Shown here in pieces: positions 11,033 through 60,090 of a DNA stretch of 64,000 nt. Every line of letters begins with the position of its first letter. The first letter of the stretch is position 1. The translations under genes were made by a program, and so were the position numbers. The stretch covers positions 352,001 to 416,000 of the forward strand of contig CAWFUG010000009.1 in NCBI GenBank assembly GCA_963818965.1. The letters are read 5' to 3'. This DNA is from an uncultured Verrucomicrobiae bacterium (GTDB taxonomy: Bacteria; Chlamydiota; Chlamydiia; Chlamydiales; Rhabdochlamydiaceae). The notes below the pieces were generated by a model, which was not told where the DNA came from, made no database searches, and worked only from the letters and a program-made list of their open reading frames with translations.

Positions 11033-11738
11033 AATTACCTTCTAGGCGTTCGTAGCAGGGGCAAGCGCTACCGTGATTGAATTGTAAAAAGTTCCAGGCT
11101 TCTCGGTTCAAAGGGTATAGAGGGTGCTCTGATTCTGTGTAAAGGGTGAAATGTGCATTATGACAAATTTCGCTGAGTTTTTGGCCGATTTTGAGATTAA
11201 TGTAGGAGTGGGGATGGGAGCAGAGTGGTTCCAGTCGCTCTTTGGCTAGCGGCTGGATCGTCTCATGGGAGAGCCATACACAGCGCTTGAGAATGATAAA
11301 GGCGTCAGAGAGGTAGCGCGGCTTGAGTGTTTCGATGGTGGCGTGGTGCTTTTGCGGGAGGTTTTTTAGAATAGTAAATGAAGCAGAGTTATACCCCGTC
11401 CGGTCAGGAATTGCGAATTTGAGCTGCGTGAAAGCTCCCGCGATTCCACGATCGAAAAGGGGGCCAGTATTGAGGAAATACAGGCCCCCTTTTCGATCGT
11501 GGAATCCCGGGGCTTTGACGCGCTCAAATTCGCAATTCCTGACCGGGCGGGGTATAAGTGCTGTGTCTGTTATTTTGTCAAATGCGATGAATCTCTCCTC
11601 TGGGTCGGAGATTTTTTGCAGTGTTGCTTTTTGGTCTGCCCAATAAGCATCTTCCGTGGAGGCGTGTGTGTGTTGCTGGGACAGGTAGCGTTGAGAAGAG
11701 GAAGGATCAGAGAGAAATGTGGTGGATAGAGGGTACAT
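10968..11738 (-). CDS. Hypothetical protein carrying an in-frame 55-aa palindromic-element insert
   Basis: ORF stays open through the element at 11390-11556. Start uncertain (ATG 11738 or GTG 11792). Confidence 0.55.
   Translation of the reverse strand: MYPLSTTFLSDPSSSQRYLSQQHTHASTEDAYWADQKATLQKISDPEERFIAFDKITDTALIPRPVRNCEFERVKAPGFHDRKGGLYFLNTGPLFDRGIAGAFTQLKFAIPDRTGYNSASFTILKNLPQKHHATIETLKPRYLSDAFIILKRCVWLSHETIQPLAKERLEPLCSHPHSYINLKIGQKLSEICHNAHFTLYTESEHPLYPLNREAWNFLQFNHGSACPCYERLEGNYATRPVLHRSAPREGEDLRDY
11390..11556. mobile_element. TA-flanked palindromic miniature element (163 bp plus TA), intragenic and in frame
   Basis: TA-TACCCCGTCCGGTCAGGAATTGCGAATTTGAGC...GCTCAAATTCGCAATTCCTGACCGGGCGGGGTA-TA; central loop gtattgaggaaatac. 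Confidence 0.85.
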
Positions 11739-11929
11739 AGAGGAGTTCCAGTGGTTAAATACGACATCGTCACCACTTCCTATGGGCGCCACCGCCTCTC
11801 GCTTAAGGTTTCTAAAGGAATTCAGGCTTACGCCTTTACGTTTGGCGCGGAATAGATATTTTAATTTTTCCTAACATTGTGGCAAAATCCCAGGTGCTTC
11901 TTTCTTTTAGATAGAGCTTGGAGGATGTC

Positions 11930-57000: not shown

Positions 57001-59691
57001 ATGCACGCAGTCCCCGTAGCGACGCATAACAGGTGGCCCGTCTGGACACTACAAGAGGCCCATCAGTTGGATAGGCTTGAGCGCTTGTGCCATCGAGCGG
57101 AAACCTCTTCGAAAGACGATCTTTCGTTTTATAAGCTCGTCAGGAAAATGCAGAGTTTGGGGATCGTGCCTCGATTACCCGCTCTTTCTCACGATCTGCG
57201 GGTTCAAACGTTGATGGATCTATTCTCCCATTACCGGCGCTTCGCTCGGAAAGGGCTGAGGGGAGATGTCATTGCCTTTGATGCGCTGAGGCTTAAGGCG
57301 CGAGTGTCTAAAGACTCTCAAGAGTTGCGAGAAATCTCGATGAAAATGAAGCAACTGAATCTTTTGGGAAAATTGGGACAGTTCAAGGGGACAGAAGAGA
57401 GCGTCGCGCGCTGTAATCGGATGACGCTAAGAGTAGAAAAAAGGGCTGCGCAGCAGCTAAACCTCGAAGTGGAAAAAGCTGGGCGGGATGATCTTCATCT
57501 CTATGCTCTGGTGGCAAGGATGCTGAATTTCGATTTTGGAGATCCAAAGCTACTCTCTCAGCTTCAAAGAAAAGCCCAAGAAAAAATCCAGCGAGATATC
57601 GACACTTTTTATGGCTTAAGCGCTCAGTTGCCAGGGTCCTCAGATGAAGACCTGCTCAGAATCACTCTCGATAAATTGGAAAGACTCAATCTCGTCGATA
57701 AACTGAGCTATTTTGAGGGGATAGAGGGGATTCAGCAGGAGTACCAGCTCGCATTAAAACAGGTGAGCGCAAAGATCCCGGTCCCCGGACTACCTGATGA
57801 TATTTTATCCCTGATCTGTCGGCGTCTCTCTCTTCCTGGATTGATCAGCTTTGCGTGCACGAACAAGGGAATGCGCGATGCGATTTATGGTAATTCCCTG
57901 ATTTGGACACATTTTTGGGTAAGGCTTTATCCAACAGATCCTCAAAAAGAATTGCCCAATGCACTACCTGTCGTGCCTCAAACGCATTCCCTTTTCAAAC
58001 AAGAGCTAAAAAAGCAGTTTCTGCACAATCTGGCCACTGGCACCCACACTTCGACCTCATTGGGTTCGCTCTCTAGCGGTGGAACCTGTTTTCAGTGGCA
58101 TGAGGGACGGGTGTATTTAGCTGAATCAGACGGGAATATTTGCATTGATGAGGAGCGAAAGACTGCAGGAAATCTCATTGAGAATGAGAGGATAGGAAAT
58201 CTCATTGGGAATGGGAATCAGATTAAATGCTTAGAAATTCATGCTCCTTTTCTCTGTAGCCACGCTGTGGATGGAATTGTGACGATCTGGAATCTCGAAG
58301 CTTCTGGCGGCTGCATTTTTCAGATTCAAGACTGCGAGAAGTTCAAGATTCACAATCAGCAGATTTACGCTCTTACCTCTAAAGAAGAACGACCTTCGGT
58401 TCCCAACGACGACGGCACCCCTAAAAAGAGTCGTAGGATTCATGGTTGGGACTTGGCTACAGGTAAGAAATTGGACAGAAAGAAGTTTCCAGAATTCATT
58501 GTCGATTTCGATTTTTATGGGGATGAAATGGTCGTAGCCACGGCAAAACAGAAGATTCAGCGGTACTGTTTTGATCGGAATGGGACAGCGATCCTGGTGG
58601 AAGAGATCCCATTGAAACACCCTTATAAAAAGGGGTTTGTTGGCCAACTTAAAATCGAGGGGGATCGACTGTTGGTTCTCTTCCATGGTTCCGGTAGGTG
58701 GAGGTGGCGGGGATTTGGCTATCCTTGTTTTGTGTGGCATCTACCGAGTAAAACAGAGGATTTTTATATCGATTTTGGCCAAGAGCCCCAACAACTCTTT
58801 ATTCATGAAGATGTTTTATACCCCGTCTTTGATTCAGATAGGGGAGAGAAAGAAGTAGGCCTTCACTTTTTTGATTCAGATTGGGATAAGGGAGGGCAAG
58901 AAGTGCTGCCTTACATTTTAACCTCCCATATCGATCTTCCCTCTTCTGAAAAGGATGAGTTGTTAAAAATGGGAGCCCGTAGTCTTCATGAACATGAATA
59001 TTCCATGGTTCCTAAAGAGGTGTGTCGCTGTCCCCATTTTGGGATAGGTCCATACGCACCAAGTGTCTGGGATCCTAAAGATAGAATTCAGGTATCGGGG
59101 ACCCAATGCTTTGTCTATTCCGTTACAAACGGTCATTTTCAAGTTTTAGATTGGAAGACATCTCCCTGTCCCTCTCTTTACTTACAAAAAGATCTCGAAA
59201 AGAGTTTGGAAATTCTCCAAGAAATCCAAAAGGTGGCGGAGCAAAACGGAGCGCATGGGGTCAGATCTTCCCTTTTAGACCAGCTTCCCCTCGAGCATTT
59301 CCAGGCATGCCTGAAGCCTCATTTAGTAGCTAATACGCCTTTGAGCCCCACGTTTTTCACCGTCCTCGCACGAGTCAAAGTGTTGATCCACATCGAGCAG
59401 CTCTTGCACGCCTTCTATCATAAAAACTTTGATCTAGTGGGTGTTTTAGCCGAACAGCTGGAAGAGCTAATCGGCAAGAAGTTGTGGGAGTCGTATCATC
59501 GGTTTGGGTACCGAAAGATCGATTCCGCTCCTCCGCATTTTGCGAGCGCTAAGGAATTCTTTTGTGATCCGGTAAGCGGCATCGAACAGCAGATTGCTTT
59601 TTTGCAAGAGGTTCAAACGCAGTTACAAGAAGCTTGGGATAGCGATCTCTCTAAATATCAAATCATCTTCCCTGTTTTTTATTGGAGTTAA
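57001..59691 (+). CDS. F-box / WD40-like effector candidate, tandem paralog
   Basis: Same architecture and leader (ctaaaggttt.tcATG) as 54375-56972. Confidence 0.82.
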   Translation: MHAVPVATHNRWPVWTLQEAHQLDRLERLCHRAETSSKDDLSFYKLVRKMQSLGIVPRLPALSHDLRVQTLMDLFSHYRRFARKGLRGDVIAFDALRLKARVSKDSQELREISMKMKQLNLLGKLGQFKGTEESVARCNRMTLRVEKRAAQQLNLEVEKAGRDDLHLYALVARMLNFDFGDPKLLSQLQRKAQEKIQRDIDTFYGLSAQLPGSSDEDLLRITLDKLERLNLVDKLSYFEGIEGIQQEYQLALKQVSAKIPVPGLPDDILSLICRRLSLPGLISFACTNKGMRDAIYGNSLIWTHFWVRLYPTDPQKELPNALPVVPQTHSLFKQELKKQFLHNLATGTHTSTSLGSLSSGGTCFQWHEGRVYLAESDGNICIDEERKTAGNLIENERIGNLIGNGNQIKCLEIHAPFLCSHAVDGIVTIWNLEASGGCIFQIQDCEKFKIHNQQIYALTSKEERPSVPNDDGTPKKSRRIHGWDLATGKKLDRKKFPEFIVDFDFYGDEMVVATAKQKIQRYCFDRNGTAILVEEIPLKHPYKKGFVGQLKIEGDRLLVLFHGSGRWRWRGFGYPCFVWHLPSKTEDFYIDFGQEPQQLFIHEDVLYPVFDSDRGEKEVGLHFFDSDWDKGGQEVLPYILTSHIDLPSSEKDELLKMGARSLHEHEYSMVPKEVCRCPHFGIGPYAPSVWDPKDRIQVSGTQCFVYSVTNGHFQVLDWKTSPCPSLYLQKDLEKSLEILQEIQKVAEQNGAHGVRSSLLDQLPLEHFQACLKPHLVANTPLSPTFFTVLARVKVLIHIEQLLHAFYHKNFDLVGVLAEQLEELIGKKLWESYHRFGYRKIDSAPPHFASAKEFFCDPVSGIEQQIAFLQEVQTQLQEAWDSDLSKYQIIFPVFYWS

Positions 59692-60090
59692 TACCAATCC
59701 TCGAAAATAACGTGCATTAGAGCTGCGTCAAAGCCGCCGGGATTCGACGATCGTAGGTTGGGTAGGCGTTGTTGCGTAATTCATGAGGACCTAATCTAGC
59801 TCCCCACCATTCTATTTTGAATATACCCCTTCCACCTCAATCGTACCCAAGAAAACCGAATGAAAAGTTCTCAAATTTCGAATCAAAGGGAGGGGGTAAT
59901 ATTGAATTAATATTAACCCCTTCCCTTTGATTCGAAATTTGAGGCTTTTAATCGGTTTGCTTGTGGTTACGATTGAGGTGGAAGGGGTATATATGCAATC
60001 TCACGACGGAGATGGAAAACCACAGAGAGGAAATTCATATTAAAAAATTTTCTCTCTGTGGTTTTCCATCTCTGTGGTGAGATTCAGCTA
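59692..60090. mobile_element. Nested repeat cluster: half palindromic element, GGCGTTG composite, inserted 166-bp element and CCACAGAGAG hairpin
   Basis: 59692-59763 half element (gcgtcaaagccgccgggattcgacgatcg); composite begins at 59765; element 59824-59989; hairpin 59997-60084. Confidence 0.85.

What the first reader, a model, noticed from the sequence alone, without database searches (positions are those of the whole stretch)
11390..60090. Superfamily of TA-flanked ~165-bp palindromic miniature elements
Seen: about 13 full, partial or minimal copies (11390, 15483, 17751, 19992 x2, 26313 x4, 48402, 51011, 59692, 59822). All have TA-TAC(C/T).../...GTA-TA ends. Full-length copies are 162-166 bp and share an asymmetric mid-arm motif (AAAGCCYC on one arm, GARCTTT(T)CA on the other) and a central TATTGA-n-AATA loop, although their outer arms differ completely. 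Established: TA-duplicating palindromic MITEs exist elsewhere (ERIC, RUP, Correia; IS630/Tc1-related). I do not know of a described chlamydial equivalent. No transposase is present in the window.
Basis: partly seen in the sequence, partly recalled or inferred. Interest (0 to 1): 0.85.

Follow-up and report, generated by a model that had tools for sequence, protein, structure and literature searches.

The report
Hairpin mini-transposons with swappable ends
Environmental chlamydiae carry many copies of a roughly 165-base hairpin-shaped jumping DNA element whose middle stays the same while its ends match those of different transposon families, so one core seems able to ride on several unrelated enzymes.

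Summary
The repeats are real. This genome has 82 strict TATAC…GTATA hairpins (0 in shuffles), 50 of them full length at 164–171 bp. Empty sites show a duplicated TA. They are non-autonomous MITEs that work like ERIC/MITEPlu5: the outer ~25 bp resemble ends of CCC-type IS630 elements found in related genomes. This genome holds only a decayed remnant. The match is strong for one subfamily and modest for the window's full-length copies.

The unusual part is the ~115-bp core. It is conserved across the phylum (at least 5 copies in about 42 of 401 genomes). Elsewhere it carries ends identical to an ISAzo13 end (19/19) and an IS5 end (22/22), and the GG-type ends have 3-bp target duplications. Chimeric two-cap copies and flipped interiors suggest how ends are exchanged. 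No enzyme activity or RNA was tested.

Eight literature searches found no description; ISfinder and a large MITE supplement were not checked. The scan noted this family before on other DNA of this genome (in-frame copies) and a similar core-plus-caps layout in other phyla. Verdict: new variant of a known kind.

The parts
11390..11556 (.). Full-length element, 167 bp with both TAs; in frame (55 codons) inside ORF 10968-11792(-)
   Evidence: the host ORF has no Pfam match or database homologue and one weak paralogue (E 7.6e-5), so it is not proven to be a gene
11390..11415 (+). Left cap of that copy: target TA plus ~24 bp IS630-type end
   Evidence: best match 11/22, only slightly above the null mean of 9.8
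11416..11530 (.). Conserved core (bounds approximate): ATTTG, bulged AAAGCTCCCG, inner stem with CGATCG, TATT-loop-AATA, CCGGGGCTTTG
15483..15648 (.). Full-length element, 166 bp, intergenic
17751..17837 (.). Internally deleted copy (87 bp), upstream of the Pfam-matched part of a glycosyltransferase ORF
20040..20093 (+). Single arm of the TATACCCAAGTGGACTCAAAAG subfamily, the best match to IS630 ends (17-18/22)
26313..26396 (.). Internally deleted copy (84 bp), first of a tandem cluster
26397..26565 (.). Full-length copy of the AT-rich 170-bp subfamily
26564..26631 (.). Two short degenerate copies abutting the cluster; the first shares a TA with the 170-type copy
48402..48448 (.). 47-bp minimal copy, in frame (15 codons) inside the 955-aa ORF 46949-49816(+)
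51011..51025 (-). Right-cap fragment only
59690..59756 (+). Left half of a subfamily with the AATACCAATCC cap and the same core
59822..59991 (.). Full-length 170-bp copy inserted at a TA inside another host repeat, whose empty copies carry one TA fewer at the site

Best explanation
These are non-autonomous DDE-type miniature transposons in two modules: a conserved palindromic core of about 115 bp and a cap of about 20-30 bp at each end that is an insertion-sequence end. In this genome the caps are IS630-type. An IS630 transposase acting in trans binds the caps, excises the element and inserts it at TA, which is duplicated (the duplication is shown; the enzyme is inferred). In other chlamydiae the same core carries ISAzo13, IS5 or other ends and moves with that family's target duplication (matching ends and duplications shown; mobilisation inferred). 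New caps arise when an IS end lands in or beside one arm and fold-back template switching copies it to the other arm, or when copies recombine in the shared core (inferred). Insertions in genes survive when in frame, which the 162/165/168-bp net lengths allow. Why the core is conserved is not shown; my best guess is that the fold-back of fixed length helps pair the two ends and keeps the arms matched.
For: TSD: window copy 59822 against many empty host-repeat copies, and C12:76253 against its empty paralogue on C5. IS630 link: an intact 1119-bp IS630 (L074, NF033545) has ends 18/22 identical to one G000 subfamily. 45 distinct G000 arms match 39 IS630 ends at mean 13.4/22, against 9.8 for 3895 genomic TATA[CG] sites and 9.4 for shuffles; 11 of 45 reach 16 or more, against 34 of 3895. 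In 3 of 5 valid genomes the resident IS end was the top match for a resident cap. Other caps: 19/19 to the left end of a complete 1316-bp ISAzo13 flanked by TAA; 22/22 including CTAG to an 811-bp IS5. 7 of 8 GG/GAGGG-capped elements have 3-bp direct repeats. The window core aligns to those cores at scores 82-98, shuffle maximum 32-39. Arm against arm 21.3/22, IS left against right 14.8/22; arms are nearer a right end in 30 cases and a left end in 11. Two-cap chimeras and both interior orientations in 4 of 4 named subfamilies. A 24-bp end is what ISY100 transposase protects, and 30-bp ends suffice for it (PMC2170065, passages).
Against: No intact IS630 in G000 (88% complete), only a decayed fragment at C9:237656-237866, yet one subfamily is about 95% identical within itself. 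DDE_3 presence does not track element load: 10 of 25 high-copy and 11 of 25 zero-copy genomes. Caps of the window's full-length copies match sampled IS ends at only 11-14/22. In G212 and G030 the resident IS end was a poor match. The IS5 and ISAzo13 partners come from non-chlamydial DNA, not from the genomes with those caps. No partner was found for the CTAG-T, GAGGGT, GGAAC or ACTCACC caps. One of six differently capped cores (L250) did not align above chance. No activity was measured.
Confidence: 0.72

Rival explanations
1. The core is read by a dedicated, unidentified protein (an HUH/RAYT-like or small nuclease), as in REPINs, and the IS-like ends are passengers.
For: The core positions and the one-base bulge are kept while stems vary: 25 of 28 copies found with a symmetric pattern are asymmetric. 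IS630 presence does not track load. One metagenome locus has an IS200 tnpA 35 bp from a copy.
Against: No Y1_Tnp in G000; Y1_Tnp in 15 of 25 high-copy and 10 of 25 zero-copy genomes. No nuclease gene between facing arms in the G000 cases read; two translated cases gave an SMR-like membrane protein and a short unassigned ORF. Target duplication length follows the cap, as DDE chemistry predicts.
Confidence: 0.1
2. Ordinary IS630 MITEs. The core is conserved only by common descent and spread between chlamydiae, and re-capping is a rare accident with no functional role for the core.
For: ERIC/MITEPlu5 and RUP are IS630-linked hairpin MITEs. Template switching alone can produce arm covariation and flips. 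My patterns and BLAST select for the core motifs, which inflates their apparent conservation.
Against: Positions outside the search pattern (CGCGGTT, GATCG, AA, TATT) are also conserved in 103 distinct elements. Total length stays about 160-170 bp under every cap. The bulge survives a process that should erase it.
Confidence: 0.13
3. A structured RNA kept for a host function (mRNA processing or stability) that also happens to be mobile.
For: 61 of 74 pairs covary. Mismatches favour G-U over A-C, 97 to 61, when oriented by the bulge. ERIC affects mRNA stability (PMC2229807, passages).
Against: Copy number is patchy, 0-72 per genome, even within a genus. Changes are mostly Watson-Crick to Watson-Crick, as for a DNA palindrome. 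The G-U count is over related copies and is not independent. No Rfam match.
Confidence: 0.05

Closest known systems
ERIC/IRU (MITEEc1) and Photorhabdus MITEPlu5, linked to CCC-type IS630 (PMC6267812 passages and supplement passages; PMC2759123 passages and Table 1a)
   Same: TA-TAC(C/T)...GTA-TA ends, a long hairpin, TA duplication, mostly intergenic, internally deleted derivatives. The closest non-chlamydial plasmid relatives of the chlamydial IS630 (about 42% identity) are mostly in Enterobacterales and Vibrionaceae. Their ends match a K-12 ERIC at 16/22 and 13/22 (0 of 5000 and 1.3% of shuffles).
   Different: 127 bp against 164-171 bp; no detectable core similarity (score 30, shuffle mean 27.5, 22% of shuffles as high); ERIC is described with one kind of end in the passages read.
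RUP of Streptococcus pneumoniae with IS630-Spn1 (PMC2229807 passages)
   Same: TA target; trans-mobilisation inferred from similarity of ends to an IS630.
   Different: 107 bp, one family, stops in all six frames, intergenic.
Rickettsia palindromic elements, RPE (PMC10969869 and PMC2229807 passages)
   Same: About 150-bp palindromes in an intracellular bacterium, several families, in-frame insertion into genes (here aroA, recC, a MenC-like and a SulP-like gene).
   Different: No RPE sequence was compared here; no mobilising IS is named for RPE in the passages read.
YPAL/RU-2 of Yersinia (PMC2759123)
   Same: About 168 bp, palindromic.
   Different: No TA termini (PMC2229807 Table 1) and different ends as printed in Table 1b.
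REPIN/RAYT systems (search listing and recall only)
   Same: Non-autonomous palindromes amplified within genomes.
   Different: HUH transposase; none in G000 and no co-occurrence here.

Membership tests
Prokaryotic MITE | Short (<500 bp), no transposase gene, terminal inverted repeats | tested here: met
Prokaryotic MITE | Target-site duplication shown by empty sites | tested here: met
   (TA)
Prokaryotic MITE | Multi-copy and dispersed | tested here: met
   82 strict hits, 218 BLAST loci
IS630-family MITE (CCC type) | Ends similar to those of an autonomous IS630 | tested here: met
   strong for one subfamily (17-18/22), modest (11-14/22) for the window's full-length copies
IS630-family MITE (CCC type) | Cognate intact transposase in the same genome | tested here: not met
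   remnant only; genome 88% complete
IS630-family MITE (CCC type) | Mobilised by that transposase | not testable with these tools
   needs a transposition assay
ERIC/IRU | TATAC(C/T)...GTATA ends and TA duplication | tested here: met
ERIC/IRU | 127-bp length and ERIC core sequence | tested here: not met
RPE | In-frame insertion into protein genes | tested here: met
RPE | Sequence similarity to RPE families | not tested
   no RPE sequence was fetched
REPIN/RAYT | Associated Y1 (RAYT) transposase | tested here: not met
Rfam RNA family | Match at gathering threshold | tested here: not met
Catalogued ISfinder MITE | Match to an ISfinder entry | not testable with these tools
   no ISfinder access; supplements of PMC11602168 not read

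The most novel reading that the evidence does not exclude
The heritable unit is the core: a transposase-agnostic hairpin chassis of fixed length that captures one end of whatever IS is active, copies it onto its other arm by fold-back templating, and so changes enzyme (IS630, ISAzo13, IS5, possibly IS701) through the history of a phylum. The same design, with unrelated cores, may underlie ERIC-like and RPE-like repeats across bacteria; 162-bp ISAzo13-capped hairpins with a different core turned up in high-GC metagenome contigs.
Probability: 0.35. Interest if true: 0.8.

Novelty: new variant of a known kind. Interest (0 to 1): 0.6.

Why it matters
MITEs are normally explained as deletion products of one parent IS and named after it. 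A core that persists across about a dozen chlamydial families while its ends change between transposase families reverses that: the parasite outlives each host transposon. It supplies matched element and transposase pairs from one genome (G371, G282, G352) for a direct test of bacterial MITE mobilisation, which a 2007 review (PMC2229807) said had no experimental support. It also shows RPE-like protein lengthening in chlamydiae, including in aroA and recC.

Tried and rejected
- Autonomous long version in G000: long-range end pairs and facing arms gave no transposase in the cases read.
- The genome's multi-copy IS are IS4 (3 copies, other ends) and IS110 (2 copies, in a different repeat); rejected as partners.
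- DDE_3 and Y1_Tnp co-occurrence: no signal.
- Viral contigs: 0 matches for four patterns.
- Plasmid BLAST for six other caps: chance-level hits, and the three regions opened showed no annotated transposase.
- IS701 (DDE_5) loci have CTAG-TAC ends of the same style, but no match reached 17/22, so that assignment is not made. An IS630 end matched one CTAG cap at 18/22 (L083).
- DDE_Tnp_1 search in five genomes with odd caps: no matching IS end.
- The G242 row was dropped: the motif picked non-element sites.
- ERIC core homology: not detected. My first ERIC filter missed the copy; it was found by eye.
- P0001 homologue search: none.
- No covariance model was built; patterns and nhmmer were used instead.
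- The tree of 72 cores was too short to resolve history.
- Wilson and Sharp 2006 was not held.
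Full report
Observation. The window is C9:352001-416000 of a 2.24-Mb, 12-contig genome, 88% complete. Related elements occur mainly in records titled Chlamydiota. A strict scan found 82 TATAC...GTATA hairpins in the genome and 0 in five shuffles. 50 are 164-171 bp; BLAST with these gives 218 loci, 20.7 kb. The 50 fall into 12 clusters, 35-78% identical between clusters. Rfam gives only two tRNAs, and none of 51 of 91 window ORFs scanned is a transposase.

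Target duplication. Copy 59822 sits in another host repeat; many empty copies of that repeat carry one TA fewer at the site. C12:76253 has an empty paralogue on C5 with one TA. Three pairs of abutting copies share one TA. The element is therefore TAC...GTA with a duplicated TA.

Genes. 41 of 50 full-length copies add a multiple of three bases; this rests on a few subfamilies and is not 41 independent events. 16 strict copies of 45 bp or more lie in frame inside long ORFs, some of which are probably spurious. Pfam places such insertions in AroA, RecC, MenC-like, SulP-like and LRR proteins. AroA homologues align on both sides of the insert, and RecC homologues lack it. In the window, 11390 adds 55 codons to an ORF without known homologues and 48402 adds 15 codons to a 955-aa ORF. 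About 89% of the genome is coding by a rough ORF call, so most copies avoid genes. Two earlier scan notes on this genome report the same in-frame behaviour; I had seen it.

Distribution. BLAST found relatives in 16 of 41 genomes of the order, G000 included. A two-arm core pattern matched 125 of 401 genomes of the phylum. Many single hits are chance, but about 42 genomes in 12 families have 5-72 copies (hand count), and the reversed control gave 0-2 per genome. Three of five oddly titled genomes carry Hc1, a histone-like protein I recall as chlamydial; the family also hit one control genome. So a spread outside chlamydiae is not shown. In 20 aligned copies, 61 of 74 pairs change on both sides and 94% of cells pair; that structure was derived from the same alignment.

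The caps are IS ends. G000 has no DDE_3 or Y1_Tnp match. A DDE_3 search of 25 high-copy and 25 zero-copy genomes showed no co-occurrence, 10 against 11. It did return an intact IS630 in G095 (L074, 1119 bp, NF033545) whose ends resemble a G000 subfamily. This clade occurs in 62 of 400 genomes. I took 39 ends from its loci and from a second IS630 group, leaving out AT-rich pairs that looked false, such as L108, L116 and L120. G000 arms match them at mean 13.4/22, against 9.8 (genomic) and 9.4 (shuffled). The subfamily seen in window fragments 20040 and 51011 reaches 17-18; the window's full-length copies reach only 11-14. The resident IS was the best of 39 ends for caps in G371, G352 and one arm of G282, but not in G212 or G030; G242 was dropped as mis-picked. 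G000 keeps a decayed IS630 fragment, and one copy has a cap whose first 13 bases equal its right end.

One core, several IS families. Among 103 distinct elements from other genomes, 64 have TA-TAC caps, 21 CTAG-T caps, and the rest other caps. One cap equals the end of an IS5 on an Acinetobacter plasmid, 22/22 including CTAG. Another equals the left end of a complete 1316-bp ISAzo13, 19/19. GG- and GAGGG-capped copies have 3-bp direct repeats (TTA, TAA, TCA) in 7 of 8 genome cases and 4 of 5 distinct complete metagenome cases. These repeats break the palindrome, so they are true duplications rather than an extension of the stem. The window core aligns to five of six differently capped cores at 82-98 (shuffle maximum 32-39); L250 did not. 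Length stays about 160-170 bp. No partner was found for the remaining caps.

How caps may change. The two arms of an element are 21.3/22 alike, while left and right ends of an IS are 14.8/22 alike. Of 49 arms with a good match, 30 are nearer a right end, 11 a left end and 8 tie. This fits one IS end copied onto both arms. Copies with two different caps exist in G000. The bulge asymmetry persists in 25 of 28 copies found with a symmetric pattern. G-U mismatches exceed A-C, 97 to 61, over non-independent copies. Fold-back template switching and cut-and-paste movement are inferences from established knowledge; for ISY100, 30-bp ends suffice in vitro (PMC2170065, passages).

Known relatives. ERIC has the same ends (PMC2759123, passages and Table 1a), and its link to CCC-type IS630 is published (PMC6267812, passages and supplement passages). 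Plasmid relatives of L074 are mostly in Enterobacterales and Vibrionaceae, and their ends match a K-12 ERIC at 16/22 and 13/22. The cores are not detectably related. RUP and RPE come from review passages (PMC2229807; PMC10969869; PMC3184786). Pithovirus repeats are a looser parallel (PMC10664404, passages). So this works like ERIC and RPE, is an IS630-type MITE in this genome, and is not ERIC.

Novelty. Eight searches showed no description of this family or of a MITE core shared between IS families; most results were seen as listings only. PMC11602168 (passages) does not name chlamydiae, but its unread supplements list over 1.4 million candidate MITEs and may hold these sequences. ISfinder and subscription journals were out of reach. 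Two scan notes describe cores with interchangeable ends in other phyla (read after my own note; untested by me). Verdict: a new variant of a known kind, interest 0.6.

Noticed in passing
window 15282-15380, 17853-17930, 20107-20180, 50891-50975, 54236-54300, 59997-60087: A second hairpin repeat family (ACCACAGAG...CTCTGTGGT), 518 motif sites in the genome. It often hosts the TA elements.
   Followed up: partly
G000 C2:48810-50536 and C9:448489-450216: IS110-family element split over two frames, inserted in the ACCACAGAG repeat at two sites; already noted by the scan.
   Followed up: partly
G000 C1:260607-261808, C2:149485-150685, C9:457884-459084: Three near-identical IS4-family copies.
   Followed up: partly
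G000 contig C4 (22 kb): Almost the whole contig is one inverted duplication folding back inside an IS4 copy; probably an assembly or read artefact.
   Followed up: no
L344, L353, L357, L358, L360: High-GC metagenome hairpins (162 bp where complete) with the same ISAzo13 cap but an unrelated core; weak resemblance to the ERIC core, 3% of shuffles as high.
   Followed up: partly
L282-L288 and L373:5272-5398: IS630 ends from Vibrio, Salmonella, Klebsiella, Enterobacter and Photobacterium plasmids match ERIC ends; candidate ERIC mobilisers.
   Followed up: partly
window 52358-53520 (-): The tgt gene is split into two overlapping ORFs, by a frameshift or a sequencing indel.
   Followed up: no
window 3965-9780 and 30414-34403 (-): Three tandem LRR proteins, two with NEL E3-ligase matches, and tandem F-box proteins; they look like secreted effectors.
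   Followed up: no
window 23934-25428 (-): AbiEii gene with an upstream partner ORF, probably a type IV toxin-antitoxin pair.
   Followed up: no
L078:57-1204 (G352): An intact IS630 abuts related TA-capped repeats with a different interior on both sides.
   Followed up: no
L349 and L359: IS200 tnpA ends 35 bp from an ISAzo13-capped copy; in L349 the tnpA is itself interrupted by a short inverted-repeat insert.
   Followed up: partly
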